From an uncultured Candidatus Saccharibacteria bacterium (lineage in GTDB: Bacteria; Patescibacteriota; Minisyncoccia; Phycocordibacterales; DATDWN01): a stretch of DNA of 64,000 nucleotides. Made by a program: the position numbers and the translations under genes. The DNA lies in the NCBI GenBank assembly GCA_964426735.1, contig CAYRRP010000001.1, positions 75,923-139,922 on the forward strand. Reading direction: 5' to 3'. Below the pieces are notes generated by a model, which made no database searches, was not told the DNA's origin, and saw only the letters and a list, made by a program, of their open reading frames with translations. The first letter of the stretch is position 1; every line of letters begins with the position of its first letter. Shown here one piece after another: positions 7,188-53,528 of this stretch.

Positions 7188-7195
7188 AAAATAAC

Positions 7196-7678: not shown

Positions 7679-7685
7679 CAAAATC

Positions 7686-8518: not shown

Positions 8519-9118
8519 ATGAAATCAAAAATTTTAGAACTTGCATCATTGATTCTTGACTTTGGAAAAGTAGATCGAAAGACATCTCACCAAGATGGTG
8601 TTTATCCTGAATCTGATACGGACCATACTGTCATGCTTGGTATATTGGCACCATCTATTGCCGAGCGTTTATATCCAGATCTTGATCGAGGGCTTTTGGT
8701 GCAGTTTGCACTGATTCATGACCTGGTTGAAGTGCATACGGGAGACACACCAACACTTATCGGTGTAAGTGATGCATTTTTTGCAGATAAAGAAGCTCGA
8801 GAATATGACTCACTAAAGCGTATTGAAGAAATGTTTGGACCTGTATTTCCGTGGGTACATACTACGATAGAGCATTATGAACGCTTGGATACAAAAGAAG
8901 CTCGGTTTATAAAAACACTTGATAAAATTTTGCCGAAGCTTACTGTGATATTAAACCAGGGTGCTGGGCTCAAACGTCACGGACATATTACTAAAGATGA
9001 AGTAAAAAAGACTTTTGTTATCCAGAAGAAGAAGTTGGAGGGTATTGCTCATGATATGCCAGAACTACTTGAGCTCTGGCAACACTTTATGGATAAAGAG
9101 CTCGAATTTTTGGAATGA
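8519..9118 (+). CDS. HD-domain 5'-deoxynucleotidase (YfbR-like)
   Basis: H...HD...D metal-binding pattern (ESDTDHT ... LIHDLVEVHTGD), as in the YfbR/HD_3 family. Confidence 0.7.
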   Translation: MKSKILELASLILDFGKVDRKTSHQDGVYPESDTDHTVMLGILAPSIAERLYPDLDRGLLVQFALIHDLVEVHTGDTPTLIGVSDAFFADKEAREYDSLKRIEEMFGPVFPWVHTTIEHYERLDTKEARFIKTLDKILPKLTVILNQGAGLKRHGHITKDEVKKTFVIQKKKLEGIAHDMPELLELWQHFMDKELEFLE

Positions 9119-9152
9119 TACAAGTAATATATTTCTGGTATACTTTTCTCAT

Positions 9153-9587
9153 ATGCAAAAAATTAAAATCGAAACAATAATCAATGCTCCAGTAGCAAAA
9201 GTTTGGGAACACTGGAATAGTCCAGAAAGCATTAAAGGGTGGGCTTTTGCCAGTGATACGTGGGAATGTCCGTATGCGGAAAATGATGTAAAAGTGGGAG
9301 GTAGATTTTTGACTCGAATGTCCGCAAAAGACGGGAGCGCTTCTTTTGATTTTACCGGTACGTACACAGAAGTTGTTCCGTTTGAAAAAATCACATACAT
9401 AATGGATAAAGCTGATACTGAAGCAGAGCATAGAGAATGCGATATTATTTTTACTGATCTTGGAGACGGTACTACAAAAATAGAAGAAGAATTTTCTCCC
9501 GAAGAAGTAAATAGTGAAGATATACAAAGAGCCGGATGGTCTGCAATACTTGAAAACTTTAAAAAGTTTGTAGAAAACAAAGCATAA
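9153..9587 (+). CDS. SRPBCC (AHSA1/YndB-like) domain protein
   Basis: About 144 aa with a conserved VWEHWNSPE...W start typical of the Aha1/SRPBCC fold. Start taken at the ATG at 9153; the ORF track begins earlier. Confidence 0.5.
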   Translation: MQKIKIETIINAPVAKVWEHWNSPESIKGWAFASDTWECPYAENDVKVGGRFLTRMSAKDGSASFDFTGTYTEVVPFEKITYIMDKADTEAEHRECDIIFTDLGDGTTKIEEEFSPEEVNSEDIQRAGWSAILENFKKFVENKA

Positions 9588-9615
9588 CGTATTTGATAAT
9601 ATAGTTTGCTATACT

Positions 9616-10152
9616 ATGAGTATGGAAGAATTGCCTCAAAATAAAATAGAATTAGCAAGAGAGTTTGCTGACAGAAAATTTAGAGAAACAGGAATAGGAA
9701 ATCATTTTTTGGAAGTATGTCATATTTTACAAAATGATTTTGGAATTGATGATATAGATATCTTAACTGCAGGTCTCCTTCATGATACGTTAGAGGATAC
9801 GAGCGCTACATACGAAGAAATAGAAAGTATTTTTGGGAAAAATGTAGCTGATATGGTAGAAGAAGTAAGTCATCCAAAAAACTACACCGCTGAACAAAAA
9901 GTAGAATATTACGAAAAACTCAAACATATTTCATGGGGTGGAAAAATGATTAAGTTGGCAGATTTTAAATCCCACCTTAAGAGATTTATCGGAGCATTTA
10001 CAGGAGAGAATAACTTAAAGAAATTTACATATAATGAATATTGTCTGTATATTCGTGGTTTTCTAGAGAGTTGTGATGATTCTTCTGCTAAAGAAGAAGT
10101 AACTAATTTAAATGACAAGTTAGAAAGTTATATTATGGGGATAAACAAATAA
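9616..10152 (+). CDS. HD-domain phosphohydrolase, SpoT/Mesh1-like small (p)ppGpp hydrolase-like
   Basis: HFLEVCH ... LLHDTLEDT ... D motif set of the Rel/SpoT hydrolase (HD_4) domain. 178 aa. The promoter-like ATAGTTTGCTATACT directly abuts the ATG. Confidence 0.6.
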   Translation: MSMEELPQNKIELAREFADRKFRETGIGNHFLEVCHILQNDFGIDDIDILTAGLLHDTLEDTSATYEEIESIFGKNVADMVEEVSHPKNYTAEQKVEYYEKLKHISWGGKMIKLADFKSHLKRFIGAFTGENNLKKFTYNEYCLYIRGFLESCDDSSAKEEVTNLNDKLESYIMGINK

Positions 10153-10183
10153 AATGATCAAGTATTTTTCATATAAATAATTT

Positions 10184-10696
10184 ATGAAAATTCTTAGAAC
10201 CATCAGAGATGTAGATATAGGAAGTGGGCTTCAAGAGCCAGAGACTTTTCGTGAACGAAAAGCAAGTCGAGGAGTTATTTTTGATAAAGAAAATAAGGTT
10301 GCTCTCGTGTATTCTGCAAAGAATCAATATCATAAATTGCCAGGAGGGGGAGTAGGTGAGGGAGAAGATTTGGAAGTGGCTTTGCAACGAGAATTGATTG
10401 AAGAAGTTGGATGTAAAGTCGAGAGTATTGAGGAACTTGGAATTGTAGAGGAATATAGAAACAAAATTGGTTTGCATCAGATTTCATATGGTTATATAGC
10501 TCGGGTAGTCGAAAAAGGTACAGCTCAGTTAGAAGCAAATGAGGTTGAGGAAAAATATATCACAAAATGGTTTGATTTAGATGTTGCAATTGAAACTTTG
10601 GAAGCTGAATCAATCACGGATCATTATGATGGTAAGTTTATGTGGATGCGTGACATAACTTTTCTTAAGGAGGCAAGACAAACAAAGTGCAACTAA
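10184..10696 (+). CDS. NUDIX hydrolase
   Basis: Nudix box PGGGVGEGEDLEVALQRELIEEVG. Confidence 0.75.
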   Translation: MKILRTIRDVDIGSGLQEPETFRERKASRGVIFDKENKVALVYSAKNQYHKLPGGGVGEGEDLEVALQRELIEEVGCKVESIEELGIVEEYRNKIGLHQISYGYIARVVEKGTAQLEANEVEEKYITKWFDLDVAIETLEAESITDHYDGKFMWMRDITFLKEARQTKCN

Positions 10697-10714
10697 TTCA
10701 GGTATAATTTAAAT

Positions 10715-11239
10715 ATGGAAGAATTTATATCACCAGAACAAATTAAATTTCCTGAAATAGCTCAAGAAATTAATGAAATGGCTGAGGTTGACCAGAATAT
10801 GCGACAAAGAGAAATCGATGAGCCTGATTTTTGGGATGATTCAGTTGATAAGAAGAATACAGAGAGAATGAAAGAAATAGTTGGGGAAATAGGTTGGCCT
10901 TCAGTTTCAAGAGTTGGAAAGGAGGCTTCAATTGATGCGTGGTTATTGGTTCAGCATGCGGATCATGATGTGGAGTTTCAATCGTATTGTCTGTCTCTCA
11001 TAAATGAATTACCTACGGGTGAAGTCCGTGCTGAAGATATTGCACTTCTTACAGATAGGGTGCGAGTTAATTCAGGTCAACCGCAGGTTTACGGGACTCA
11101 ATTTAGACAAGTGGATGGAAAACATATTCCAAAGGATATTGAGGATATTGAAAATGTAAATGAAAGACGAAAAGCGGTAGGGTTAGATTCTTTAGAAGAG
11201 AATATCGAAAGAATGTATAAAAAGTATCCTTTAAAATAG
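10715..11239 (+). CDS. hypothetical protein (174 aa) inside the nucleotide-hydrolase island
   Basis: ORF with balanced composition, 18 nt after the upstream gene. No assignable motif. Confidence 0.5.
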   Translation: MEEFISPEQIKFPEIAQEINEMAEVDQNMRQREIDEPDFWDDSVDKKNTERMKEIVGEIGWPSVSRVGKEASIDAWLLVQHADHDVEFQSYCLSLINELPTGEVRAEDIALLTDRVRVNSGQPQVYGTQFRQVDGKHIPKDIEDIENVNERRKAVGLDSLEENIERMYKKYPLK

Positions 11240-11330
11240 GATTAAAGAAGTCAGGAGCTATTGTCACGGAGCAGAAAGTGGATTGGTTGTTATGTGCACA
11301 ACCTCCTTTATTAATTGGTATACTTACACT

Positions 11331-11891
11331 ATGAAAATATTTTTAGTGAGACACGGGGAAACCGAAGAAAACGTTGCAGGTCTTTTGATGGGGCAACATC
11401 AAGGAGTGTTGACTGAAAAAGGGAAAACTCAAGCAAGTGAGACTGCTGGTATGTTGAAGGATTATACATTTGCACACATCTATTCTTCCGATTTGAATCG
11501 GTGCGTAGATACTGCTGAAATTATTAAAGAGTTTCATCCTGATACACCTCTGACATTTACTAAAGATCTGAGGGAACGACATCTTGGGATTTTCCAGGGA
11601 CAACCTCACATATCTGTAGACTGGGAAGCGTTACCGGGTACTTGGGATGATAAGAAACCGGAAAATGGTGAGTCTGTGGCTGAGTTGAAAAAGCGAGCGC
11701 TAGATTTTATTGAATACCTCTACACAATTCATCCGAGCGAAAGTATATTGCTTATTTCTCATAATGGATGGATAAAACAAATTATTTCACATTTTTCTGG
11801 TGTGCCATCTAAGGAAGTGGGTAAGGTAGAAAATGCTCAGGTTATTGAAGTTGAAGTGGGTGAAAATCTAGAAGGGAAAATTTTGAACTAG
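11331..11891 (+). CDS. histidine phosphatase family protein (phosphoglycerate mutase-like)
   Basis: MKIFLVRHGETEEN (RHG catalytic motif) at the ATG at 11331. 186 aa. Confidence 0.75.
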   Translation: MKIFLVRHGETEENVAGLLMGQHQGVLTEKGKTQASETAGMLKDYTFAHIYSSDLNRCVDTAEIIKEFHPDTPLTFTKDLRERHLGIFQGQPHISVDWEALPGTWDDKKPENGESVAELKKRALDFIEYLYTIHPSESILLISHNGWIKQIISHFSGVPSKEVGKVENAQVIEVEVGENLEGKILN

Positions 11892-11896
11892 TATAT

Positions 11897-12385
11897 ATGC
11901 AAATCGTATCAACTATCACTAATAAACAAGGAGAGACTTTTAAATCTATCTATCATGAAGGTGAAAATCCTAATGAAAATTTAGATGGAGTTATTTTGCC
12001 TGGCTCAGGCGGACATTGTTTTTGTGGTGACAAGTTGGTAATTGTAAAATCCGGTAATGATTGGGGTTTTCCAGGGGGTGGAATTGAAAAAGGAGAGACA
12101 TGGCAGGATGCTGTCGCACGGGAGGTAAAAGAAGAAGCAAATATGAAAGTGGTACACCACGAGCTTATTGGCTACCAAGACTTTTTTATGAAAAAACACA
12201 CATTGCGCCATGTGCACTCTCTCTGTATTGTCGAGCCGTATGGAGACTTTGAATCTGATCCAGATAACGATATTACGGAGATAAAACTCATTGATCCGAA
12301 AGATTTTAAAGAATACATCAACTGGGGTGAAGTTGGTGATTATCTAATGAAACAAGCTTTGGAAATGAAAGATTTGATAAAATGA
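11897..12385 (+). CDS. NUDIX hydrolase (paralog 3)
   Basis: Nudix box PGGGIEKGETWQDAVAREVKEEAN. C-terminal block PYGDFESDPDNDITEIKLIDPKDF is shared with the 7196 and 7686 paralogs. Confidence 0.8.
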   Translation: MQIVSTITNKQGETFKSIYHEGENPNENLDGVILPGSGGHCFCGDKLVIVKSGNDWGFPGGGIEKGETWQDAVAREVKEEANMKVVHHELIGYQDFFMKKHTLRHVHSLCIVEPYGDFESDPDNDITEIKLIDPKDFKEYINWGEVGDYLMKQALEMKDLIK

Positions 12386-12512
12386 TTTGATTACTAAGAA
12401 CCCATCATTAGGTTTGTTTACTTAAATTTGTTGTCCAACAGAAAAATAATAGAAGTAAGAAAACGCTTGTGTTTTTAATAAAAAATGGTATTGTAAATTT
12501 TGAGGTGCTCTG

Positions 12513-12857
12513 ATGTTATATTACGAAAGTGCAGTACAATGTCCGCAAGAAGGAAGCTTGGGTGAATCTCTAGTTCAGGTTGTCTCAGAAGAAGACGGAG
12601 TCTATCTTATTGTTCTTCCGGACGGAGTCACTCCTGGGAGACGAGAAGCTGCAGAGAAGTTTGCAGAGGCAGTTGCGAACCTTCGTGCAAGAGCTCCTGG
12701 TTGTTCATTTTCTTTCACTCCGTTTGATTATGAGTCATCTAAGGAATCTAGCGGCGTCACATCGTGGCTAGCAGTTCGAGGACGTGTTTTGCCACGACGA
12801 TTGAGTTTGATGGATAGGATGCTGAGAGTACTTGCTCTACCGTCAGTGAGATATTAA
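12513..12857 (+). CDS. hypothetical small protein (GC-elevated)
   Basis: 114 aa. RBS GAGGTG 6 nt upstream. Own rho-independent terminator. Locally elevated GC. Confidence 0.4.
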   Translation: MLYYESAVQCPQEGSLGESLVQVVSEEDGVYLIVLPDGVTPGRREAAEKFAEAVANLRARAPGCSFSFTPFDYESSKESSGVTSWLAVRGRVLPRRLSLMDRMLRVLALPSVRY

Positions 12858-12862
12858 CTTAA

Positions 12863-12905
12863 CCGCCCGCGAGAGCCAAACGCTTTCGCGGGCGGCTTTC
12901 ATTTA
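12863..12905 (+). terminator. rho-independent terminator
   Basis: CCGCCCGCGAGAGCCAAACGCTTTCGCGGGCGG followed by a T-run. Confidence 0.75.
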
Positions 12906-12989
12906 TACGTAAAATATAACTTTGTTATAGGTTGCGATTGTAATTTTAAATAAAATACTGTAGAAATATACCTAGAAAGGGAAACATCC

Positions 12990-13301
12990 ATGGGTAGTAA
13001 TTATTATGCTAAAAGATTCGGCAAAGTGGTGTCTGCCACTGAAGATCAGGTGACTGAGATACTGCAGGTCAACACGAAAGCAGCTGCAGCAAAAGAGTAT
13101 GTTCTCCAGTGCATGCCGGAGGTCAGAATCAACAGAAATGAAGAAGTTTATTGCCCTTACGCAGCATGTGGAGCCCAACAATCTTCGCTCACGATCGGAA
13201 TTCATACGTGTCGAAACAGCAAGTGTGGCAGAATGTTTAGGGTGCCGGACACTGCCACCAATCGGCGGATCAGAAAAGAACTCCAACACGATAGGTTTTG
13301 A
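12990..13301 (+). CDS. small cysteine-rich (zinc-ribbon-like) hypothetical protein
   Basis: 103 aa. C-x4-C ... C-x4-C arrangement (CPYAACGAQ ... CRNSKCGRMF). RBS AAAGGGAAA. Own terminator at 13334-13367. GC-elevated. Confidence 0.4.
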   Translation: MGSNYYAKRFGKVVSATEDQVTEILQVNTKAAAAKEYVLQCMPEVRINRNEEVYCPYAACGAQQSSLTIGIHTCRNSKCGRMFRVPDTATNRRIRKELQHDRF

Positions 13302-13333
13302 CATCCTTTATTGTTGGCTCAAAGGTGGCTTTA

Positions 13334-13367
13334 ATCGGAGTTGTTTTGCAACAACTCCGATTTTTTG
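13334..13367 (+). terminator. rho-independent terminator
   Basis: ATCGGAGTTGTTTTGCAACAACTCCGAT followed by TTTTTTG. Confidence 0.75.
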
Positions 13368-13455
13368 TATTCGATATTTGCTACCCTCTATTTTCTCAAA
13401 CTTTGGTATTTTTTATAAATTCAAATCTAAACAAATAGTTTGCTATACTAACACC

Positions 13456-14055
13456 ATGAAAAAACAAGTTGTTGTTATCCATGGTGGAGATACATTTGAA
13501 AATTATGAGGCGTATGTCGATTTTCTAAAAAATTTTGAAATTGATCTTGAGAGATATAAGACAAGTAAAAATGATTGGAAGCCGTGGCTCAGGCAAAAAC
13601 TCGGAGAGGAGTATGAGGTTATATTGCCTACAATGCCAAACAAGACAAATGCACAGTTTGGAGAGTGGAAACTCTGGTTTGAGAAAATAATTCCACTGTT
13701 AAATGATCAGGTTGTATTGGTAGGGCATTCTCTCGGAGCGTCTTTTTTGGTTAAATATTTATCGGAAAATATATTTCCAAAAAAGATACAAGGTGTATTT
13801 CTCGTAAGCGGGGTTTTTGATACAGATTCGGAAGGGTATTTGTTGTGGAGTTTTGCATTACCAGAAAAGCTCGACTTGCAGACAGAACATATATACCTCT
13901 ATCACAGCAAAGATGATCCTGTTGTACCATTTTCTGCTCTTGGGGATTTTATGAATGTGTTACCTGGTGCTCATGCGAGAGTGTTTGAAGACAGGAGACA
14001 TATAAACCAAGAAGAATTTCCAGAACTCGCCGAAGATATTTTAAGTGTGGAATAA
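13456..14055 (+). CDS. alpha/beta serine hydrolase (RBBP9/YdeN family)
   Basis: VVVIHGGDT ... LVGHSLGAS (GxSxG nucleophile elbow) ... D/H pattern. TATACT-N6-ATG leaderless promoter arrangement. Confidence 0.7.
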   Translation: MKKQVVVIHGGDTFENYEAYVDFLKNFEIDLERYKTSKNDWKPWLRQKLGEEYEVILPTMPNKTNAQFGEWKLWFEKIIPLLNDQVVLVGHSLGASFLVKYLSENIFPKKIQGVFLVSGVFDTDSEGYLLWSFALPEKLDLQTEHIYLYHSKDDPVVPFSALGDFMNVLPGAHARVFEDRRHINQEEFPELAEDILSVE

Positions 14056-14069
14056 CATATATGTAATAT

Positions 14070-14330
14070 ATGAAAGATTTCAAACCAAAACATACTCCTT
14101 TTGTTGTGTTGGGTATACTGTCTCTCGTATGCTCGCGTATATTATTTTCATTGTTTAATGACCCTGAGGGTGCAAATCTACTTGTGGTTGTAGTAATGGC
14201 ATTGATTATGTATTTCTTGTCGCTGACTCCGTATATACTTGTGGCTTCACTCAATAGTCAGAGTAAATTTTTAGGTGGGATTTTGATTCAAATAGTATCA
14301 CTTGTCACTTTCTGGGTGTATTTAAAATAG
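14070..14330 (+). CDS. small membrane protein
   Basis: 86 aa with 2-3 TM helices. Confidence 0.4.
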   Translation: MKDFKPKHTPFVVLGILSLVCSRILFSLFNDPEGANLLVVVVMALIMYFLSLTPYILVASLNSQSKFLGGILIQIVSLVTFWVYLK

Positions 14331-14402
14331 GTTACGTATAGTATATAGAAGTGAGATAAGGTATTCCTATAAAATTAATATAACTTTGGTATACTTAAAT
14401 TC

Positions 14403-15275
14403 ATGTTCGTTATTCCTAAGAAAAAAAGTATACAAGTTGCTAGCATACTTTCTGTGGTAGTGTTTTTTTACCTGGTTATCGTAGTAGATGTATTTCATAT
14501 TATCGGTACAGCTGAGCAGTCCCAAGTGGGTACAGTGGCACTTTCTACTACACAACAAAGCGTGCCTCCAAGTGAACAAGATTTGCTTGGTAAGGCAGAA
14601 TTGAGTTATGCAGGAGGGACGATAGGGAGAAATAAAAATATTGAACTAGGTGCATCTTTGATTGACGGTACAGTTGTTTTTCCTGGAGAGGAATTTTCGT
14701 TTATTAAAGCGTTGGGAGAGGTTACTGAAGAAGGTGGTTTTAGTAATGAAAAAGTCTTTCTCAATGGTGAAGTAACAAAGGGGATTGGTGGCGGACTTTG
14801 TCAGGTATCAACAACTCTTTTCAGAGGCATACTTGAAGCTGGTTTTCCTGTAACCGAGCGGCACAATCATAGCTATACTGTTTCTCGATACGATGCTGGT
14901 CTCGATGCAACATATTCAGATCCTGGTGTTGATTTGAAATTTTTAAACGATATGAAGTATCCAGTGGTAGTGCGTGCAAAAACAGAAGAACAAAAAGTGG
15001 TTATTGAACTTCGTGGTATTTCTGACGGAAGAGTTGCGAGTACAACAGAACCAGAAATTATACATATCGTTGACGTACCACCTCCACGTATTGTTGCTAC
15101 CACCACCGTCTTTAAAAAAGGACAAGAATGTGTAAATAGTCCACAGATTGGCTATACCGCAAAGGTAGAATATAGTATTTTTTATCCAGACAATACAGTA
15201 AAAGAGCAAATCTTTTCTTCTACATATAAACCATTGCAAAGAATATGTTACGTGATGGCGACAAGTACGCAATAA
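14403..15275 (+). CDS. VanW family protein
   Basis: N-terminal TM helix and the VanW signature GGGLCQVSTTLF. Confidence 0.75.
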   Translation: MFVIPKKKSIQVASILSVVVFFYLVIVVDVFHIIGTAEQSQVGTVALSTTQQSVPPSEQDLLGKAELSYAGGTIGRNKNIELGASLIDGTVVFPGEEFSFIKALGEVTEEGGFSNEKVFLNGEVTKGIGGGLCQVSTTLFRGILEAGFPVTERHNHSYTVSRYDAGLDATYSDPGVDLKFLNDMKYPVVVRAKTEEQKVVIELRGISDGRVASTTEPEIIHIVDVPPPRIVATTTVFKKGQECVNSPQIGYTAKVEYSIFYPDNTVKEQIFSSTYKPLQRICYVMATSTQ

Positions 15276-15288
15276 TATAGACAATACT

Positions 15289-16119
15289 ATGATTAAAAAA
15301 ATACTACGAGTGGTGATTGTTGTTTGTGTAGGGGTTGTTGTGTGGTGTGTATTTTTGAAACCAGTGCCACTTACAGGGGATTGGCAAGAGCATCTCAAAA
15401 TAGCTTCAACTGCAGAATTTAATGGTGATACTGTTACCGTTAAGAATGTAAGAAATTTTAGGTATTACCCTCAGGAGAAAGATATGCATCCTGGATATTA
15501 TGATCGTACCTACAATCTCAATGAAGTAACACAAGTGTGGTATGTAGCAGAACCATTTAATGAAAATGAATCAGCAGCACATACATTTGTTTCTTTTGAA
15601 TTTAAAAATGGCGATTTTCTTTCTATTAGTATAGAGGCACGAAAAACAAAAGAACAAACATACAGTATTTGGAAAGGTTTTTTGCGTACGTATCCGCTTA
15701 TCTATATTGCTGCCGATGAACGAGACGTGATACTTCTTCGTGCAAATCTTCGAAAAGACAAGGTGTATGTATATCCAGTAAAATTTGAAAAACCAGAAAA
15801 TAGACGACTCTTGTTGGTAGATATGCTCACACGAATGAATGAACTTACTACAACAAAGCCTGCGTGGTATAACACATTATTTGCAAATTGTACGTCGAGT
15901 ATTGCGGGGCATGTAAATAAGCTCTCGCCAGGGCGCATTTCTATTTTCTCATGGGAACTCTGGCTCACCGCTTCTGCCGATGAGCTTGCACTTGAGCATG
16001 GACTACTTGATACTGATTTGTCTATTGAAAAAGCTCGTGAAAAATATTCAATCAATGAAACGTCTCTCAGGGTGGGGGATGTGCCAGAGTATTCCACAGA
16101 AATTCGAAAATTTAAATGA
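15289..16119 (+). CDS. DUF4105-like membrane-anchored protein
   Basis: N-terminal TM helix, about 270 aa, conserved NCTS motif region reminiscent of DUF4105 (Lnb N-terminal domain). Confidence 0.45.
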   Translation: MIKKILRVVIVVCVGVVVWCVFLKPVPLTGDWQEHLKIASTAEFNGDTVTVKNVRNFRYYPQEKDMHPGYYDRTYNLNEVTQVWYVAEPFNENESAAHTFVSFEFKNGDFLSISIEARKTKEQTYSIWKGFLRTYPLIYIAADERDVILLRANLRKDKVYVYPVKFEKPENRRLLLVDMLTRMNELTTTKPAWYNTLFANCTSSIAGHVNKLSPGRISIFSWELWLTASADELALEHGLLDTDLSIEKAREKYSINETSLRVGDVPEYSTEIRKFK

Positions 16120-16226
16120 TATACTTATTGTATATAAATAATTGTAATTTTATGGCAAAAGGAAACACACATACAAAAGAAAAAAAGAAACCAAAAAAGC
16201 CAAAGGCTAAATAGTCTGAAGCGACA

Positions 16227-16262
16227 AAAAACCTTCTCTGTTTAAAGAAAAGGTTTTTTGTT
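16227..16262 (+). terminator. rho-independent terminator
   Basis: AAAAACCTTCTCTGTTTAAAGAAAAGGTTTTTTG. Confidence 0.6.
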
Positions 16263-16273
16263 AGAATAGTTGC

Positions 16274-16840
16274 ATGTTTGATTTTATTGATCCGAAGACT
16301 ATATACACAATTATTCATGTGTTTGGGGCGATTTTAGGAGCCGGAGGGGCATTTGTGAGTGATGGTATGTTTTTTGACACTATCAAAGATGGAAGAGTGA
16401 CAAAACGTGAGCTTGATTTTATGAAGCTCGGAGGGAGGTTTGTGTGGACGGGGCTTTTTGTACTCCTTATATCAGGTATATTTCTTGTATCTACCGACCC
16501 TGCGCGTTATCTTGTATCAGATAAATTTATTGCTAAAGTTGTTATTGTTGCCGTGATTGTATTAAATGGAATTATATTTCATACTATTCATATTCCTCAT
16601 ATCAGAAATCATCTCGGTATTAAACTTAAAGAGTCAGAGACTTTTCTAAAAAAATCTTCATTTATCATGGCGAGTGGTGCACTCTCACTCGTCTCATGGG
16701 TGGTGACAGTAATCCTCGGAAGTCTTCGTCATGTTCCATACAATTACGCTGAAATATTGAGTGTGTATGTGGTGTGCGTGACAGTCGCTATTGTGGGGGC
16801 ATTGACTATGAAAAGAGTGGTGTTGCATATTAAAAATTAA
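16274..16840 (+). CDS. polytopic membrane protein
   Basis: 188 aa with about 5 TM helices. Confidence 0.5.
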   Translation: MFDFIDPKTIYTIIHVFGAILGAGGAFVSDGMFFDTIKDGRVTKRELDFMKLGGRFVWTGLFVLLISGIFLVSTDPARYLVSDKFIAKVVIVAVIVLNGIIFHTIHIPHIRNHLGIKLKESETFLKKSSFIMASGALSLVSWVVTVILGSLRHVPYNYAEILSVYVVCVTVAIVGALTMKRVVLHIKN

Positions 16841-16850
16841 AAAATTATGT

Positions 16851-17255
16851 ATGAAAGAAGATGCATTGTTTTATGTTGGACAGAAAGCATTTATTAAAAA
16901 AGGTGATGAAGTACTAGTGCTTGGAGATCCTGTTGAAGGACTCGATTACCCTGGTGGGAAAATTCAGGAAGGTGAATTTGATTTGGTAGAGTCATTAAAA
17001 AGAGAAGTAAGAGAAGAAACAGGGTTAGAGATTTCAGTTGGTGAACCTTTTGCAACATGGACAAATGTATTTCCTGCACAGCATCGCCTTGCAGGGAAGC
17101 GAGTATTTTTAGTGGGGTATAGATGTGGGTATGTATCTGGAGAAGTTCAGTTGAGTAACGAACATGATAAATTTTCTTGGGTTACAAAAGATAACTTTAA
17201 TACAGTAGATGATGGCACATCATATTTTGAAATTTTAAAGAAGTACTTTGCATAA
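16851..17255 (+). CDS. NUDIX hydrolase
   Basis: Nudix box PGGKIQEGEFDLVESLKREVREETGL. Confidence 0.75.
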   Translation: MKEDALFYVGQKAFIKKGDEVLVLGDPVEGLDYPGGKIQEGEFDLVESLKREVREETGLEISVGEPFATWTNVFPAQHRLAGKRVFLVGYRCGYVSGEVQLSNEHDKFSWVTKDNFNTVDDGTSYFEILKKYFA

Positions 17256-24368: not shown

Positions 24369-25889
24369 TTAAAATTCATTAAGAAGAGATACATCTGCAC
24401 CGATTGAGTTCAATCGTTCGGCAATATTTTCGTATCCGCGATTAATAGCATATACATTACGAAGAATGGAAGTTCCTGTGGCACCAAGCATTGCAACAAG
24501 GATGATCATTGATGGACGAAGAGCGGGTGGGCATACCACTTGTGTCGCGTGTAGAGGTGTGGGTCCGTTAATAAATACCCTATGAGGGTCAGCGATAATA
24601 ATGTCGCTACCAAGACGGTTTAATTCATTGAAATAGATTGCTCGGCTTTCCCACATCCAGTCATGAATAAGGGTGGTACCTTTTGCCTGAGTTGCGATAG
24701 GTACAAAGAAGGGCAGATTGTCTGAATTTATGCCCGGGTATGCAGATGCATGAATCTTATCTTTTAATGCGGTAAGTTTTGAAGGATACACTGTTATATC
24801 ACATAGTTTGGTGTATCCATTTTTTGCTACATAGAGAGGTCCTTCTGTGTATTTCATTCCCATTTTTTCAAGCTTTAGTATCTCCAGAGAAAGAAAATCA
24901 ATTGGACATCGTGTGATGGTAAGTTTTGATTTTGTAACGAGTGCTGCGGCAATAAACATCATTGATTCGGTAGGGTCTTCACTGTTCCAATATTCAATTG
25001 GTTTATTTATCTCGCTTATTCCATGAATAATAAGTGTACTTGTGCCAATTCCTTCAATCTTCACTCCGCATTGTTTAAGAAAAAAACACACTTCTTGTAC
25101 CTGATAATTTGGTGGAGTAAAACGAAGAGTGGTAGTACCTGGAATAAGTGCAGAAGCAATAAGAAGGTTTTCTGTAGCTGTGTCTGAAGCTTCAAATAAT
25201 ACAATATCCGCGGGCTGTAGCTTCTTAGTTATTATTTCATAATGTGTTTGTTTGGTGGCTATATGTGCACCGAGCGACTCAAGTCCGTATCGATGGGCGG
25301 CGATTGTTCGTTGCCCCATTTTACATCCACCTGCATGTGGTATTGTAAAATTTTTTTCGTGATGTATGAGTGCACCAATAAGCATAAGTACTGATCGTAT
25401 GCGTGTTGAATTTACGGCACGTAATTTTTCTACAGAAAATTTTTTGGGAGGTTGGATGCGCACCGTATTTTTATCCACCCAGTCAATTTTAACGCCAATA
25501 CACTCAAATATTTCAATAATGCGACTGATTTCCTCAATCCGAGGGATGCCGTGGAGTGTTGTTGTGTTTTTGTTGAGGAGGGAAGCGCAAAAAAGACCAA
25601 GCGCACCATTTTTAGATGTGTTGGTTTGTATTGATCCTGATAACGTTTTTCCTCCTGTAATCTTAAAATCATCTGTAGTGTTCTCTACTTTTACAATCGT
25701 TTTACCAAGAATGGTACTTATTTTAGAAAGTAAATCTGCAGTTAGGTTTTGATCGCCTTTTTCTATTCGAGCAACGGCACTCTGAGAAGTTTTTAGTTTT
25801 TTTGCGAAATCTCCTTGTGTCAAACCTGCATCCTCACGCATTTGTTTAATAATCATCCCTATTTTTTCCATGCTTTTTTGTTGAGACAT
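24369..25889 (-). CDS. murA: UDP-N-acetylglucosamine 1-carboxyvinyltransferase with N-terminal XRE-type HTH domain
   Basis: 506 aa. Residues about 10-70 form an HTH_XRE fold (MREDAGLTQGDFAKKLKTSQSAVARIEKGDQNLTADLLSKISTILG). The remainder is canonical MurA (SKNGALGL; active-site Cys in HAGGCKMGQRTI). Confidence 0.85.
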   Translation of the reverse strand: MSQQKSMEKIGMIIKQMREDAGLTQGDFAKKLKTSQSAVARIEKGDQNLTADLLSKISTILGKTIVKVENTTDDFKITGGKTLSGSIQTNTSKNGALGLFCASLLNKNTTTLHGIPRIEEISRIIEIFECIGVKIDWVDKNTVRIQPPKKFSVEKLRAVNSTRIRSVLMLIGALIHHEKNFTIPHAGGCKMGQRTIAAHRYGLESLGAHIATKQTHYEIITKKLQPADIVLFEASDTATENLLIASALIPGTTTLRFTPPNYQVQEVCFFLKQCGVKIEGIGTSTLIIHGISEINKPIEYWNSEDPTESMMFIAAALVTKSKLTITRCPIDFLSLEILKLEKMGMKYTEGPLYVAKNGYTKLCDITVYPSKLTALKDKIHASAYPGINSDNLPFFVPIATQAKGTTLIHDWMWESRAIYFNELNRLGSDIIIADPHRVFINGPTPLHATQVVCPPALRPSMIILVAMLGATGTSILRNVYAINRGYENIAERLNSIGADVSLLNEF

Positions 25890-26857: not shown

Positions 26858-27763
26858 TTATTTTTTAATTAGTGAAGATGCTGTTTCCATACACCAACTT
26901 TTAAAAATATCTTTTAATGAAAGATTTGCTCCTGCGACCATTTTTGGAATTAATGAAGTGTTCGTCATCCCAGGTATTGTATTGATTTCTAAAAAGTAAA
27001 CTTTATTTTCGTTGGTGACGATAAAATCTGATCGTGATATATGACGAACTTCCAGGTGTGTATGGATCAGTAGAGCTTGTCGTTGTAACTCTTGTGTAAG
27101 AGAGTCAGGTATTTCAGCAGGGCATACTTCTGTCGCTAGTTTGTCAGGATTATATTTACTCTCAAAATCAAAAAAAGTATTTTTGGGAATAATTTCAATT
27201 ACAGGTAATGCAAATACCTTACTATCATAGTCTAGAATCCCTACAGTAAATTCTCTCCCTTTAACTGGTTCTTCTATAAGAAATTTAAGATGAGAATTTT
27301 CTACTAACAACTCATTCATCTCTTCTTGGGTGGTACATAGTTTTGAAGCAACTGATGATCCTCCTAGTCTTGGTTTAACAAAAGCAGGGAATGTTCCGGA
27401 TAGCTCTTTTGGGGATAAAATACCAAGAGAGCTAAGAATTTCTTTTGTGTATTTCTTATCTATTGTAATAGAATGAGTGGTTGTGTTGGAAAATAAAAAA
27501 GGGATTGCTAGAGACTTTAGTAGTGCTTGTAATGTTCCATCTTCACCTCCTTCACCGTGGATAATAGGAATAGCGAGATTAAAGGTCTGTGCACACTTTA
27601 GAAATTTATCTTGATCTTCAGGAAATGTAAAAAGCTCAGTTTCTGCAAAATCAATAAGATCTTGAATGTTTCGAGCAGATCTAATAGAAACCTCACGTTC
27701 ACCAGTCTCTCCTCCAGTTATTAGTGCTATTCTCATAAGCTTTAATAGTAACAAATTTTGCAA
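26858..27763 (-). CDS. ddl: D-alanine--D-alanine ligase
   Basis: MRIALITGGETGEREVSIRSA N-terminus; ATP-grasp fold with EINTIPGMTNTSLIP near the C-terminus. Confidence 0.85.
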   Translation of the reverse strand: MQNLLLLKLMRIALITGGETGEREVSIRSARNIQDLIDFAETELFTFPEDQDKFLKCAQTFNLAIPIIHGEGGEDGTLQALLKSLAIPFLFSNTTTHSITIDKKYTKEILSSLGILSPKELSGTFPAFVKPRLGGSSVASKLCTTQEEMNELLVENSHLKFLIEEPVKGREFTVGILDYDSKVFALPVIEIIPKNTFFDFESKYNPDKLATEVCPAEIPDSLTQELQRQALLIHTHLEVRHISRSDFIVTNENKVYFLEINTIPGMTNTSLIPKMVAGANLSLKDIFKSWCMETASSLIKK

Positions 27764-36951: not shown

Positions 36952-37058
36952 GCAATTGAGCAAAGTTCTAGGCAGGCTAGGAAAATAATTGTAGGCGTAC
37001 TCGTTGTACGATGGAAATTATTTTCAGTAGCCTAACAACGAAATTTGCCAAGTGCGGA
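36952..37058 (-). repeat. ~105-nt intergenic repeat, copy C (inverted relative to A and B)
   Basis: The reverse complement aligns to copy A at about 80% identity over about 105 nt (TTGGCAAATTTCgTTGT ... AAAATAATT ... CGTAC ... AGTACG ... CAATTATTTTCCTAGC ... GAACTTTGCTCAA). Confidence 0.75.
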
Positions 37059-37073
37059 AGTTCTAGAAAACAT

Positions 37074-37598
37074 ATGGAGAAAGCTGTATTTGGAGGGGGC
37101 TGTTTCTGGTGTGTGGAAGCTGTGTTTAAAATGCTCAAAGGTGTGAGTGAGGTGTATCCAGGATACGCCGGAGGTACGGTGCCGAATCCAACTTACGAAC
37201 AGGTATGCACGGGAGATACCGGACATGCTGAGGTGGTAGTGGTGGAGTATGATCCTTCAGTTATTAAATATACAGATTTAATGACGGTGTTTTTTGCAAG
37301 CCACAATCCGACCGAGAAAAACAGGTAGGGGGCAGATGTGGGGACTCAGTACCGCTCTGTGATTTTCTATACAACAGAACGGCAAAAAGAAGATGCCTTC
37401 GCGTACATTAAGGAAATAGAGAGTGTGGGTGGAGGTAAGCCAATAGTCACTGAAGTAGAGCCTTTGACCGAAGTATATAAAGCAGAGGATTACCATAAAG
37501 ATTATTTAGCAAATCATCCATCCGCACCGTATTGTCAGATTGTTATTGAACCAAAACTCGACAAAGTAAAAGAGCGATTTGCAAAACTAATAAAATAG
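37074..37598 (+). pseudogene. msrA: peptide methionine sulfoxide reductase MsrA interrupted by an in-frame TAG
   Basis: [12 protein letters not shown] catalytic-Cys motif. ...[25 protein letters not shown] continues in the same frame. The TAG (37326-37328) replaces the conserved Gln (CAG) of the NRQGNDVGTQYRS block. Confidence 0.7.
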
Positions 37599-37713: not shown

Positions 37714-38121
37714 ATGTATAAATTAAATAATATAAAAACTATGGAAATTGACGAAGAAGAGTTGAAAGCAAAGCTTACTCCAGAGGAGTATAAGGTGTTG
37801 CGAGAAAAGGGAACTGAAGCTCCGTTTTCAGGTGCACTGTTGCATGATGAGCGAAGTGGTATGTATACATGCAAAGTGTGTGGGCAAGAACTTTTTGCCT
37901 CAGATGCAAAATTTGATTCAGGTACTGGTTGGCCAAGTTTTGATCAGGCTATACCGGGGAGTGTGGTAGAAACAGAAGATGTGTCGCATGGAATGTCTCG
38001 AACAGAGATTACGTGTTCACAATGTGGATCACACTTGGGGCATGTGTTTAATGATGGACCGACTGTTACAGGAAAGAGGTATTGTCTTAATTCAGTGTGC
38101 TTAGACCTAAAGGTCAAATAA
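37714..38121 (+). CDS. msrB: peptide methionine sulfoxide reductase MsrB
   Basis: Two CxxC zinc knuckles (CKVCGQ, CSQCGS) and the catalytic region [10 protein letters not shown]. Confidence 0.85.
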
Positions 38122-40195: not shown

Positions 40196-40224
40196 AAAAA
40201 AGAGGCCAAGCGGCCTCTTTTATT
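40196..40224. terminator. bidirectional rho-independent terminator
   Basis: AAAAAAGAGGCCAAGCGGCCTCTTTTATT. Confidence 0.8.
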
Positions 40225-40387
40225 CTTCCAGATCGTCGTCGGGAAGAAAACAAATAGTGCATTCTCGAGTGAGTTTTTTCCCAGTAGGGTGATTTGGCGG
40301 TTCAAGTAGACGCTTCAGCGTGTATTGTTTACAAACAGTACAGTATTCGCTGGTTGAACCTCGAAAGATTGCAGATTCTACAGACAC
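40220..40387 (-). CDS. unlisted small C4 zinc-ribbon protein (55 aa, GTG start)
   Basis: Strong SD GAGGAGG 8 nt upstream of a GTG. Encodes VSVESAIFRGSTSEYCTVCKQYTLKRLLEPPNHPTGKKLTRECTICFLPDDDLEE with CxxC-x24-CxxC. Stop codon runs straight into the terminator hairpin. Absent from the ORF track (under 60 aa, non-ATG start). Confidence 0.45.
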   Translation of the reverse strand: MSVESAIFRGSTSEYCTVCKQYTLKRLLEPPNHPTGKKLTRECTICFLPDDDLEE

Positions 40388-40416: not shown

Positions 40417-41463
40417 CTATCTCAACAATTCGTCAATTTTTGCTGCCACAATAAAGTCGTTGTCAGAGAGTCCTTTGATGGCATGTGTAGTGAGTACGAT
40501 CTTCACTTTATTGAAATCAAACAGGTGTAGATCTGGGTGGTGATTTTCAACATCTGCAATATGAGCCACTCTATTTACAAAGCGCATTGCCTCTCGAAAG
40601 TTTGTAAATTGTACAATCTTTTCAATATGCTTATCTTCAACAAGTACCCATTGATTGATTTGTTCAAGAAGGATCTCATTTTGTTCGTGGGTGAGTGGTG
40701 CAACACCTCCTTCGCACGGTACACATTCTTTTTGTGCAAGAGGATTCACTGGTTCGAAATGCTCGATAGGGATACCGTTGCGTACGGGAGCATTTTTAAT
40801 AATATCAATAATCTCATCCTCATTATCAGTAATAGTAAAGAGTGTTAGATCTTCTGGTTCAATAGTCTTTCTAAACAACAACTCTTTTTTCATTGTTTCA
40901 TACATTTCATCCCAGAATTCATGTCCCACAAGAATAATAGGTACTCGTTCGATTTTTTTTGTTTGGACAAGAGTTACTACTTCAAAAAATTCATCAAGTG
41001 TACCAAAACCTCCCGGGAAAAAGATATATGCTTCTGCTGCAAAAGAAAGACATACTTTACGGCTAAAGAAGTAATAAAAATCAAGATGTTTCGTAAGGTA
41101 AGGATTTACAATCTGTTCTCGAGGGAGTTGGATGGTAAGTCCGGCTGACTCTCCGCCAGCTTCAAATGCCCCTTTGTTTGCTCCTTCCATAATACCGGGT
41201 CCTCCACCAGTGACGATTGCGTAGTTGAGTTCTTTTGCAATACGAAATGCAAGTGCTTCGGCTTTTTTATAAAATATATTATCGGGACCAAGATTTACTC
41301 CGCCAAAAAAAGTCACTGACCGTGGAAGATCTTCAAGAAAACTAAAACCTTCTTTAAATTCTCGGCTAATTAAAGAAATGCGCTCGTGTGCAGCGGCATG
41401 CATTTCTTTTTTTGTTAATGTTTTGAATTCTGTTTTTTCGCGGATTATTTTTTTTTCACTCAT
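40417..41463 (-). CDS. LOG-family (TIGR00730) nucleotide phosphoribohydrolase fused to pterin-4a-carbinolamine dehydratase (PCD/DCoH) domain
   Basis: 348 aa. N-terminal LOG motifs GGGPGIMEG and PGGFGTLDE. The C-terminal about 95 aa carries the PCD signature ENHHPDLHLFDFNKVKIVLTTHAIKGLSDNDFIVAAKIDEL. Confidence 0.75.
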   Translation of the reverse strand: MSEKKIIREKTEFKTLTKKEMHAAAHERISLISREFKEGFSFLEDLPRSVTFFGGVNLGPDNIFYKKAEALAFRIAKELNYAIVTGGGPGIMEGANKGAFEAGGESAGLTIQLPREQIVNPYLTKHLDFYYFFSRKVCLSFAAEAYIFFPGGFGTLDEFFEVVTLVQTKKIERVPIILVGHEFWDEMYETMKKELLFRKTIEPEDLTLFTITDNEDEIIDIIKNAPVRNGIPIEHFEPVNPLAQKECVPCEGGVAPLTHEQNEILLEQINQWVLVEDKHIEKIVQFTNFREAMRFVNRVAHIADVENHHPDLHLFDFNKVKIVLTTHAIKGLSDNDFIVAAKIDELLR

Positions 41464-43094: not shown

Positions 43095-44342
<1,248 letters not shown>

Positions 44343-52562: not shown

Positions 52563-53528
52563 ATGAATACATCACCGATCAGAGTTGCAGTGTTACGGGG
52601 AGGACCATCTCATGAATACGATGTCTCATTACGTACGGGAAGTGAAGTGTTGAAACATTTACCTCCACAGTATAAAGGGATTGATATACTAATCGATAGA
52701 GATGGTGTGTGGCACATGAACGGCACACCAAAATCTCCCGAGAAAATTTTCCCACACATCGATATTGTATGGAATGCTCTCCACGGACACTTTGGTGAAG
52801 ATGGAAAAATCCAACATATACTCGAAATGCATGGTATACCACATACAGGATCTTCTGTGTTACCGAGTGCACTTGGAGTAAATAAAGTATTATCTAAAAA
52901 TGTGTTCGCAAAATACGGTATTCGCACACCACACTCTATTGCTGTACATAAAGATGAGATGTCGAATGCAAAAATACATGAAATATTTACGACACTTCCA
53001 CATCCTGCCATCGTAAAACCTGCGTCCGGCGGATCATCACTTGGTGTAAAAGTGGTACAAACCATTCCCGAACTTATTGAAGCACTTGAAGAAGCATTTG
53101 CATATGGAGAAAAGGTTGTTGTTGAAGAATACATCACTGGACGCGAAGCTACGTGTGGTATCATCTCAGGTTTTAGAGATGAAAATCTCTATGCGCTTCC
53201 TGTGCTTGAGGTAAAAAAACCAGATGGACTTTTACATCATACGTTTGATCATAAGATGGAGGGAGGAGTCGAGTTTGACCATATGAGTCTGACCGCACTC
53301 GAAAAAGCAGAAGCAAAGCGTGTAGCGATGCTTGCACATAAAGCTCTCGGACTCTCACATTATTCTCGCTCAGATATGATCGTACATCCAAAACGAGGAG
53401 TCTTTTTGTTAGAAGTAAATAGTCAACCAAGTCTGAAGGATGGAAGTTCGTTTGCACACGGACTTGAACATATCGGAAGCTCACTTTCTCAATTTTTGGG
53501 ACATGTGCTCGGAAGGGTGACAATATAA
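52563..53528 (+). CDS. D-alanine--D-alanine ligase family ATP-grasp protein (second copy)
   Basis: RVAVLRGGPSHEYDVSLRTGSEV N-terminus, ATP-grasp core and EVNSQPSL motif. TATAAT-N6-ATG. Only about 25-30% identical to ddl at 26858. Confidence 0.75.
   Translation: MNTSPIRVAVLRGGPSHEYDVSLRTGSEVLKHLPPQYKGIDILIDRDGVWHMNGTPKSPEKIFPHIDIVWNALHGHFGEDGKIQHILEMHGIPHTGSSVLPSALGVNKVLSKNVFAKYGIRTPHSIAVHKDEMSNAKIHEIFTTLPHPAIVKPASGGSSLGVKVVQTIPELIEALEEAFAYGEKVVVEEYITGREATCGIISGFRDENLYALPVLEVKKPDGLLHHTFDHKMEGGVEFDHMSLTALEKAEAKRVAMLAHKALGLSHYSRSDMIVHPKRGVFLLEVNSQPSLKDGSSFAHGLEHIGSSLSQFLGHVLGRVTI

What the first reader, a model, noticed from the sequence alone, without database searches (positions are those of the whole stretch)
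40417..41463. LOG-family phosphoribohydrolase fused to a pterin-4a-carbinolamine dehydratase (PCD/DCoH) domain
A single 348-aa ORF joins a complete LOG/TIGR00730 domain (GGGPGIMEG, PGGFGTLDE) to a C-terminal domain with the PCD signature (E-N-H-H-P-D-L ... THAIKGLSDNDF ... AAKIDEL). PCD normally recycles the pterin cofactor of aromatic amino-acid hydroxylases, or acts as the DCoH dimerisation cofactor. I know of no functional link between PCD and LOG nucleotide/cytokinin-type chemistry, so the fusion predicts a coupling between the two (substrate channelling or a regulatory partnership).
Basis: partly seen in the sequence, partly recalled or inferred. Interest (0 to 1): 0.5.

Follow-up and report, generated by a model that had tools for sequence, protein, structure and literature searches.

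The report
Conserved LOG–pterin dehydratase fusion protein
A group of tiny, host-dependent bacteria (Parcubacteria) carries a real, inherited gene that joins a nucleotide-cleaving enzyme to a pterin-recycling enzyme through a floppy linker; the combination has not been described, but nothing here shows that the two halves need each other.

Summary
Window 40417-41463 (minus strand) is one 348-aa ORF with a complete type-II LOG domain and a complete PCD domain. Both pass Pfam gathering scores and keep all catalytic motifs.

It is not an artefact. 104 of the 120 best database clusters have the same architecture, at 50-92% identity. Every hit that carries an organism name is from Parcubacteria.

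In a library of 1.84 billion 50%-identity representatives, the family collapses to one full-length cluster plus two fragments. It is therefore one lineage-specific fusion. The LOG and PCD trees are congruent, which points to a single origin and vertical descent.

The evidence argues against tight coupling:
- The linker is 9-29 aa long, 15% identical, and has low pLDDT.
- Two AF2 models give pTM 0.64-0.65, so no inter-domain packing is predicted.
- Two LOG-only orthologues in the same synteny nest inside the fused clade, so the PCD domain was lost at least twice.
- No other LOG locus examined (about 79) has a PCD gene within 10 kb.
- The fused PCD has the same conserved positions as free-standing PCDs.

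Best reading: a bifunctional protein, a hexameric nucleoside-5'-monophosphate N-glycosidase core with tethered canonical PCD domains. The physiological pterin-type substrate is unknown. Interest is moderate.

The parts
40417..41463 (-). Whole gene: LOG-PCD fusion protein, 348 aa plus stop codon
   Evidence: ORF list; Pfam and NCBIfam; 104 homologous clusters with the same architecture
41332..41412 (-). Residues 18-44: long N-terminal helix alpha1, the type-II LOG hallmark that builds the six-helix bundle of the hexamer in CgLOGII and TtLOGII
   Evidence: AF2 DSSP helix 18-44. Aligns to 5wq3 from residue 48. Its role in hexamerisation is described in PMC5379747. R28, E35 and F40 are invariant.
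40771..41331 (-). Residues 45-231: LOG Rossmann-like catalytic core, ending in the conserved APVRNG
40990..41016 (-). PGGFGTLDE (residues 150-158): nucleotide-phosphate-binding motif with Asp157 and catalytic Glu158. The catalytic Arg135 lies at 41059-41061.
   Evidence: Regex and alignment. P150, G151, G152, G154, T155, D157, E158, R135 and K136 are invariant in 41 sequences. Roles of Arg155, Asp177 and Glu178 in CgLOGII are given in PMC5379747.
40741..40770 (-). Residues 232-241: inter-domain linker, variable in length (9-29 aa) and sequence across the family
   Evidence: Alignment A1. Mean pairwise identity 0.15 and the length range. pLDDT falls to 59-77 here, and to 42 in the P0087 model.
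40420..40740 (-). Residues 242-348: pterin-4a-carbinolamine dehydratase (PCD/DCoH) domain of the long bacterial form, with an N-terminal CxxCE
40456..40554 (-). Residues 304-336: PCD catalytic motif DVENHHPDLHLFDFNKVKIVLTTHAIKGLSDND, containing His308, His309, Pro310, His327 and Asp336
   Evidence: Regex match to [EDKH]-x3-H-[HN]-[PCS]-x5,6-[YWF]-x9-[HW]-x8,15-D (the motif is recalled from Naponelli et al. 2008). H308, H309, P310 and D336 are invariant and H327 is 96% conserved.

Best explanation
The gene encodes a genuine bifunctional protein that arose once in a Parcubacteria (Paceibacteria/Zambryskibacteria-type) lineage and has been inherited vertically.

The N-terminal 231 residues are a type-IIa LOG enzyme. 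By inference it is a hexamer built around its N-terminal helix. It would hydrolyse the N-glycosidic bond of nucleoside 5'-monophosphates to give a free base plus ribose 5-phosphate. That activity is useful to bacteria that live by scavenging nucleotides.

The C-terminal 107 residues are a canonical pterin-4a-carbinolamine dehydratase. By inference it dehydrates a 4a-hydroxy-tetrahydropterin-type carbinolamine exactly as free-standing PCDs of the same subfamily do. It hangs on a flexible 9-29-residue tether at the periphery of the LOG core.

By inference, the fusion gives co-expression and co-localisation, and possibly dimeric cross-bracing of the LOG hexamer by PCD dimers. It is not an obligate channelled two-step reaction.

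What is shown: the ORF, both domains, all catalytic motifs, conservation, single origin, secondary losses and the flexible linker. What is inferred: the two activities, the oligomeric state, the physiological substrates and the absence of channelling.
For: - Domains and cut-offs.
- Type-II features (N-terminal helix, Arg, Asp, Glu, PGGFGTLDE).
- The PCD motif is complete in the window protein and in 99 of 104 fused homologues.
- Both domains are under purifying selection, with mean identity 0.61 and 0.52, against 0.15 for the linker.
- All 31 positions conserved at 80% or more in the nearest free-standing PCDs are conserved to the same residue in the fused domains, and there are no fusion-specific conserved residues.
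- The family forms one 50%-identity cluster plus two fragments among 1.84 billion representatives.
- The LOG and PCD neighbour-joining (NJ) trees are congruent.
- LOG-only orthologues L011 and L013 nest inside the fused clade, sit in the same FKBP-TGT-UvrB synteny, and L013 keeps a linker-like tail.
- No PCD gene lies within 10 kb of any other LOG locus examined.
- pTM is 0.65 and 0.64 with pLDDT 89. This is about what the LOG domain alone would contribute (230 of 348 residues), and the linker has low pLDDT.
Against: - A fusion kept down to about 50% identity usually signals some functional relationship, so pure co-expression may understate it.
- The PCD domain scores below the NCBIfam equivalog cut-offs (110.3 against 137).
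- No pterin-dependent hydroxylase, Moco, folate or queuosine-synthesis gene was found in the 64-kb window. It is therefore unclear what a canonical PCD would act on in these reduced genomes.
- The NJ trees carry no bootstrap support.
- No PAE or multimer model was available, so domain packing in the oligomer is untested.
Confidence: 0.55

Rival explanations
1. Coupled salvage of a modified purine or 7-deazapurine-type base. LOG would release a base from a scavenged modified nucleotide, for example queuosine- or preQ-type 5'-monophosphate, as eukaryotic Qng1 does. The PCD domain would dehydrate a carbinolamine or hydrated form of that base. This would feed the neighbouring, atypical tRNA-guanine transglycosylase.
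For: - LOG or LOG-PCD lies divergently next to FKBP-TGT-UvrB in all 10 Parcubacteria loci examined, with shared proteins only 52-62% identical.
- TGT is also directly upstream of a type-II LOG in two Collinsella loci.
- All TGTs in these syntenic loci have a remodelled specificity loop, GGSFEKEDM in place of GGLAVGEGQDEM.
- Type-II LOG relatives have varied base preferences.
- Qng1 acts on queuosine 5'-monophosphate (PMC9881137 abstract).
Against: - The synteny is with LOG, not with PCD: LOG-only orthologues keep it.
- The genes are divergently oriented and embedded in housekeeping genes (uvrABC, xseAB), so inherited gene order suffices as an explanation.
- Only 2 of about 75 LOG loci outside Patescibacteria have TGT nearby.
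- No known queuosine precursor carries a carbinolamine for PCD to act on.
- The PCD domain shows no change in its conserved residues.
Confidence: 0.08
2. A pterin-cofactor (Moco/molybdopterin-type or other phosphorylated pterin) handling module. The LOG domain would bind the phosphorylated pterin in its phosphate loop, as LOG-like Moco carrier proteins do. The PCD domain would repair or recycle the oxidised or hydrated pterin ring.
For: - COG2154 PCDs have been assigned a role in Moco metabolism in organisms without aromatic amino-acid hydroxylases (PMC3223725).
- This would give both domains one class of ligand.
Against: - Carrier proteins lack the catalytic Arg and the PGGxGTxxE motif. Here both are invariant, as expected for an active hydrolase.
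- No Moco-biosynthesis or Moco-enzyme gene appears in the window or in the flanks of related loci.
- From general knowledge, Patescibacteria are not known to use Moco. This was not tested genome-wide.
Confidence: 0.08
3. The PCD domain acts mainly as a DCoH-like structural or regulatory module, in dimerisation or partner binding, that modulates the LOG hexamer. Its dehydratase chemistry would be irrelevant.
For: - DCoH is a known protein-binding dimerisation cofactor with the same fold (PDB hits 1dch and 1uso).
- Type-II LOGs are trimers of dimers, so tethered dimerising domains could cross-brace them.
- The third catalytic His is replaced by Tyr or Phe in 3 of 104 homologues.
- The domain is dispensable in two sublineages.
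Against: - The catalytic His-His-Pro, His and Asp residues are 96-99% conserved, and the whole conservation pattern equals that of free-standing enzymes. A purely structural role would not maintain this.
Confidence: 0.12
4. Artefact: a frameshift, a read-through error or a chimeric assembly joins two separate genes.
For: None found.
Against: - 104 independent clusters from four data sources have the same continuous ORF.
- Loci L001-L005 and L010 carry it in one frame.
- Composition is uniform across the gene.
Confidence: 0.01

Closest known systems
Type-IIa LOG phosphoribohydrolases (CgLOGII/Cg1261 5wq3, TtLOGII/TT1465 1wek, S. coelicolor 5zi9, N. meningitidis YgdH 9us2)
   Different: The known members are single-domain proteins of about 210-260 aa. 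This one carries a C-terminal PCD domain. Base preference is unknown: relatives range from AMP or cytokinin nucleotides to UMP or CMP.
Free-standing bacterial pterin-4a-carbinolamine dehydratases of the long (PhhB-like, CxxCE) form, PF01329 / COG2154
   Different: The domain is tethered to another enzyme. It scores below the NCBIfam equivalog cut-offs. No aromatic amino-acid hydroxylase partner is seen in the window.
Molybdenum cofactor carrier protein (MCP, 2iz5) and related LOG-like pterin binders
   Different: MCPs lack the catalytic Arg and the PGGxGTxxE motif. Both are invariant here.
PCD-like Rubisco assembly factors (acRAF 4low, plant RAF2)
   Different: These factors have lost the PCD catalytic residues (from memory of Wheatley et al. 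2014). The window domain keeps them and is much closer to true PCDs. No Rubisco gene is in the window.
PpnN (E. coli YgdH) nucleotide 5'-monophosphate nucleosidase
   Same: A LOG-family core with the same chemistry. It is also a LOG domain with extra domains attached.
   Different: PpnN has different flanking domains and alarmone regulation. NF038390 scores only 27.8 bits against a cut-off of 450.

Membership tests
LOG family, type II (TIGR00730 / PF03641) | Profile score above the curated cut-off | tested here: met
   TIGR00730 scores 127.1 bits against 96.35. PF03641 scores 101 bits against 27.
LOG family, type II (TIGR00730 / PF03641) | PGGxGTxxE motif with catalytic Glu, plus catalytic Arg (Arg155 and Glu178 in CgLOGII) and the type-II Asp177 | tested here: met
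   PGGFGTLDE at residues 150-158. R135, D157 and E158 are invariant in 41 homologues. Residue roles are from PMC5379747.
LOG family, type II (TIGR00730 / PF03641) | Extended N-terminal alpha-helix that forms the six-helix bundle of a hexamer | tested here: met
   A helix at residues 18-44 is predicted at pLDDT 72-92 and aligns with the 5wq3 N-terminal helix. The hexameric state itself cannot be tested with these tools.
LOG family, type II (TIGR00730 / PF03641) | Phosphoribohydrolase activity on nucleoside 5'-monophosphates | not testable with these tools
   Needs an enzyme assay.
Pterin-4a-carbinolamine dehydratase (PF01329 / COG2154) | Pfam score above the gathering threshold over the full profile length | tested here: met
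   94.6 bits against 26, covering profile positions 2-91 of 91.
Pterin-4a-carbinolamine dehydratase (PF01329 / COG2154) | Catalytic motif [EDKH]-x3-H-[HN]-[PCS]-x5,6-[YWF]-x9-[HW]-x8,15-D | tested here: met
   Matched at residues 304-336, and in 99 of 104 fused homologues. The motif definition is recalled from Naponelli et al. 2008; the paper is not held.
Pterin-4a-carbinolamine dehydratase (PF01329 / COG2154) | NCBIfam equivalog cut-off for 4a-hydroxytetrahydrobiopterin dehydratase | tested here: not met
   The best model, NF002019, scores 110.3 bits against a cut-off of 137. NF002017 scores 71.2 against 80. The domain is clearly in the family but is not nameable as an equivalog by NCBI's rule.
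Pterin-4a-carbinolamine dehydratase (PF01329 / COG2154) | A pterin-dependent aromatic amino-acid hydroxylase or other pterin user in the genome | tested here: inconclusive
   None in the 64-kb window or in the 20-kb flanks of six related loci. Whole genomes could not be examined.
Molybdenum cofactor carrier protein (LOG-like) | Loss of the catalytic Arg and of the PGGxGTxxE motif | tested here: not met
   Both are retained and invariant. The criterion is from PMC5379747.
PpnN nucleosidase | Equivalog profile NF038390 with the PpnN-specific flanking domains | tested here: not met
   27.8 bits against a cut-off of 450; only the LOG core matches.
PCD-like Rubisco assembly factor (acRAF/RAF2) | PCD fold without the catalytic His residues, encoded with Rubisco or carboxysome genes | tested here: not met

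The most novel reading that the evidence does not exclude
The fusion marks an undescribed two-step salvage or repair reaction in nucleotide-scavenging ultra-small bacteria. The LOG domain would release a pterin-like, 7-deazapurine or oxidatively hydrated base from a scavenged nucleoside monophosphate. The tethered PCD domain would dehydrate its carbinolamine form to give a usable base, possibly one supplied to the neighbouring TGT with its remodelled specificity loop. This would give PCD a physiological role in the many bacteria that have PCD but no pterin-dependent hydroxylase.
Probability: 0.1. Interest if true: 0.7.

Novelty: new variant of a known kind. Interest (0 to 1): 0.35.

Why it matters
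PCD genes occur in many bacteria that have no aromatic amino-acid hydroxylase, and their role there has never been settled. Type-II LOG enzymes also lack a clear physiological substrate outside cytokinin producers. A conserved natural fusion of the two in genome-reduced, nucleotide-scavenging bacteria offers a concrete experimental handle: one recombinant protein tests both activities and any cross-talk. It also gives a comparative-genomics handle, because sublineages that lost the PCD domain can be compared with those that kept it. If the halves prove independent, the case is a useful caution that conserved fusions in streamlined genomes need not mean substrate channelling.

Tried and rejected
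- **Frameshift or chimera:** rejected.
- **General LOG-PCD gene neighbourhood** (a 'Rosetta stone' test): tblastn with the PCD domain against 89 fetched loci found PCD only in the fused genes and in the four standalone-PCD loci I had fetched on purpose. None lay beside another LOG.
- **Standalone PCDs of other Patescibacteria:** their neighbours are UDG/EVE, MetK, or MazG+NADAR. None is LOG or TGT.
- **PCD-only protein search:** it returned only free-standing PCDs and did not list the fused proteins.
- **The roughly 450-aa hits whose precomputed Pfam list includes PF02481 (DprA):** they turned out to be tandem LOG-LOG proteins without PCD.
- **afdb50 structure library:** unavailable.
- **Naponelli et al. 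2008:** not held.
- **Exact look-up of the window protein's contig:** nothing on record.
- **Literature searches** for LOG+PCD fusion, COG1611/COG2154, Patescibacteria+PCD and CPR+pterin: no description of this architecture.
- **The 55-aa 2xCxxC ORF downstream (40220-40387):** not conserved in related loci.
- **Promoter and terminator scan around the gene:** no more sites than in shuffled sequence.

Full report

Yes. Window 40417..41463 holds one ATG-initiated ORF of 348 aa on the minus strand. Pfam places a LOG domain (PF03641, residues 92-220, E 7.5e-29) and a full-length Pterin_4a domain (PF01329, residues 256-346, E 3.9e-27) on it. Both score far above their gathering thresholds. NCBIfam TIGR00730 is passed (127.1 bits against 96.35). 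The PCD equivalog models align over residues 239-347 but stay below their strict cut-offs (110.3 against 137).

Against solved structures the N-terminal part is closest to type-II LOGs: 5wq3 at E 1.6e-49, then 5zi9, 1wek and 9us2. The C-terminal part matches PCD/DCoH entries 2ebb, 2v6s, 1uso and 1dch.

**2. Is it an artefact?**

No. Of the 120 best 90%-identity clusters in a 5.8-billion-protein collection, 104 carry the same LOG+PCD architecture. They are 50-92% identical and 340-396 aa long, apart from a few shorter fragments and partial sequences, and they come from NCBI, JGI, ENA and Logan assemblies. Every hit that carries an organism name is from Parcubacteria, Zambryskibacteria, Paceibacterota or Minisyncoccota, that is, from the Patescibacteria/CPR. 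In six fetched loci the two domains lie in one frame. Composition is uniform across the gene.

**3. Anatomy**

An alignment of 41 members (A1) shows these invariant residues:
- LOG signatures G86, G87, G88, G90, M92.
- R135 and K136.
- P150, G151, G152, G154, T155, D157, E158.
- PCD residues W272, H308, H309, P310, N335, D336, F337.

E306, H327 and the N-terminal C247/C250 pair are nearly invariant.

According to the structural study of CgLOGII, type-II LOGs are defined by three things. The first is an extra N-terminal helix that builds a six-helix bundle and makes the enzyme a hexamer. The second is catalytic Arg155 and Glu178. The third is Asp177 inside PGGFGTLDE (PMC5379747). The window protein has the predicted helix (residues 18-44), plus R135, D157, E158 and the identical PGGFGTLDE.

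The canonical PCD motif, recalled from Naponelli et al. 2008, is matched at residues 304-336. It is matched in 99 of 104 fused homologues. The exceptions mostly replace the third His by Tyr or Phe.

The two domains are joined by a segment of 9-29 residues with 15% mean identity. The LOG core has 61% and the PCD domain 52%.

**4. Structure**

I ran AF2 on the window protein with 41 sequences. It gave pLDDT 89 and pTM 0.65, with the linker at pLDDT 59-77. I ran it again on P0087, a 52%-identical homologue with a longer linker. It gave pLDDT 88.9 and pTM 0.64, with the linker below 50. A pTM close to the size fraction of the larger domain (230 of 348) is what two rigid bodies without a defined mutual orientation give. 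This is my inference, because no PAE was available.

No solved chain covers both domains. Foldseek agrees.

**5. Distribution and history**

In a library of 1.84 billion representatives clustered at 50% identity, the full-length query finds PCD-containing proteins only in P0063 (360 aa) and two fragments. Every other top-150 hit is LOG-only or a tandem LOG-LOG protein. The fusion family is therefore about one 50%-identity cluster, that is, one lineage. More distant fusions that score below the top 150 cannot be excluded.

NJ trees, without bootstrap, show three things:
- The fused LOG domains form one clade.
- The fused PCD domains form one clade, apart from the basal P0082.
- The subclades match between the two trees.

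This fits one fusion event followed by vertical descent.

Two LOG-only genes, L011 and L013, nest inside the fused clade. L011 stops just after APVRNG plus 14 residues. L013 keeps a tail resembling the linker of its fused neighbours. Neither has PCD within 10 kb. Both sit in the same synteny as the fused genes. The PCD domain was therefore lost at least twice.

**6. Context**

In all Parcubacteria loci examined the gene lies divergently beside FKBP, TGT and UvrB, usually followed by UvrA and UvrC. The other flank varies. In the window an RluF-like pseudouridine synthase is inserted between LOG-PCD and FKBP, and xseA/xseB lie on the other side.

The synteny belongs to LOG, not to PCD, because LOG-only orthologues share it. 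Outside Patescibacteria, only two Collinsella loci out of about 75 have TGT next to a type-II LOG. Free-standing PCDs of other Patescibacteria have unrelated neighbours. A Pfam survey of 50 window ORFs found no aromatic amino-acid hydroxylase and no pterin, Moco or queuosine-biosynthesis gene.

**7. What the PCD domain is like**

It is 55-60% identical to free-standing PCDs of about 110 aa, some of them from Patescibacteria. I compared 103 fused domains with 120 free-standing ones. Every position conserved at 80% or more in one set is conserved to the same residue in the other, except one weakly constrained position. No fusion-specific conserved residue exists. The domain is therefore under the same constraints as the free enzyme, which argues against neofunctionalisation and against a merely structural role.

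**8. Explanation**

The best-supported reading is a bifunctional protein. Its core is a hexameric type-IIa LOG nucleoside-5'-monophosphate N-glycosidase. Relatives of this core cleave AMP or cytokinin nucleotides, or prefer UMP or CMP, so base preference cannot be read from homology. The core carries flexibly tethered canonical PCD domains. The activities, the oligomeric state and the substrates are inferred.

The fusion probably secures co-expression and co-localisation rather than channelling. Rivals, with my probabilities:
- Coupled modified-base salvage linked to the neighbouring atypical TGT: 0.08.
- A pterin or Moco-type handling module: 0.08. Moco carrier proteins are LOG-like and COG2154 has been tied to Moco metabolism. 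However, the catalytic LOG residues that carrier proteins lack are invariant here.
- A DCoH-like structural role: 0.12.
- Artefact: 0.01.

**9. Novelty and score**

The architecture is already present in public databases. NCBI names it only as 'TIGR00730 family Rossman fold protein', although Pfam hits to both domains are on record. None of my literature searches found it described. It is a new variant, an undescribed domain combination, of two well-known families, and it is confined to one CPR lineage. The evidence points to loose rather than obligate coupling, so I rate interest as moderate (0.35). The most novel reading not excluded is a new salvage or repair reaction that would explain orphan bacterial PCDs. 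I give it a probability of about 0.1.

Noticed in passing
window 43137-44342 (+); also the TGT genes in L001-L005 and L010-L014: The tRNA-guanine transglycosylase passes the TIGR00430 equivalog. However, its substrate-specificity loop is shortened from GGLAVGEGQDEM (Z. mobilis) to GGSFEKEDM, and it has an insertion of about 34 aa at residues 106-139. All TGTs in the syntenic Parcubacteria loci share GIGG[ST]F[EDVAI]KEDM, and the Glu235 equivalent is not conserved. This may indicate a different 7-deazaguanine substrate.
   Followed up: partly
window 6396-17255 (+): An island of nucleotide-housecleaning genes: five NUDIX hydrolases (7196-7678, 7686-8180, 10184-10696, 11897-12385, 16851-17255), two HD phosphohydrolases (8519-9118, 9616-10152), a histidine phosphatase (11283-11891) and a nucleotidyltransferase (6396-7187).
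   Followed up: no
window 24369-25889 (-): A 506-aa protein joins an N-terminal HTH_3 (XRE-type) DNA-binding domain (residues 14-66) to a full MurA/EPSP_synthase domain (residues 78-493). This is another unusual fusion, and it sits in the mur gene cluster.
   Followed up: no
window 37011-37598 (+): msrA is interrupted by an in-frame TAG at 37326-37328, at the position of the conserved Gln (…[18 protein letters not shown]…). This is a nonsense mutation, a pseudogene or a sequencing error. msrB next door (37714-38121) is intact.
   Followed up: partly
window 40220-40387 (-): A 55-aa ORF with two CxxC pairs (zinc-ribbon-like) and a GAGGAGG Shine-Dalgarno-like sequence lies just downstream of the LOG-PCD gene. 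It has no counterpart in related loci.
   Followed up: yes
proteins P0101-P0120, P0241 and others (other Patescibacteria, e.g. Magasanikbacteria): A family of about 450 aa consists of two tandem type-II LOG domains in one chain. The precomputed Pfam list of most members includes PF02481 (DprA). Many longer multi-LOG proteins also exist.
   Followed up: partly
L074 34-1287 and L084 33-1391 (Collinsella): The tgt gene lies directly upstream of, and co-directional with, a type-II LOG gene. This is the only TGT-LOG adjacency seen outside Patescibacteria among about 75 loci.
   Followed up: partly
L006 7350-8791; L009 6678-8522: Free-standing PCD genes of other Patescibacteria sit beside nucleic-acid or nucleotide-related genes. 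In L006 they are a uracil-DNA glycosylase and an EVE-domain gene that overlaps PCD by 4 bp. In L009 they are MazG and NADAR. This could be chance.
   Followed up: no
window 49-3233 (-): A terminase large-subunit-like gene (Terminase_6C) and an N6/N4 DNA methylase lie at the window edge. They may be a prophage remnant.
   Followed up: no
window 26858-27763 (-) and 52563-53528 (+): The same 64 kb holds two D-Ala-D-Ala ligase paralogues.
   Followed up: no
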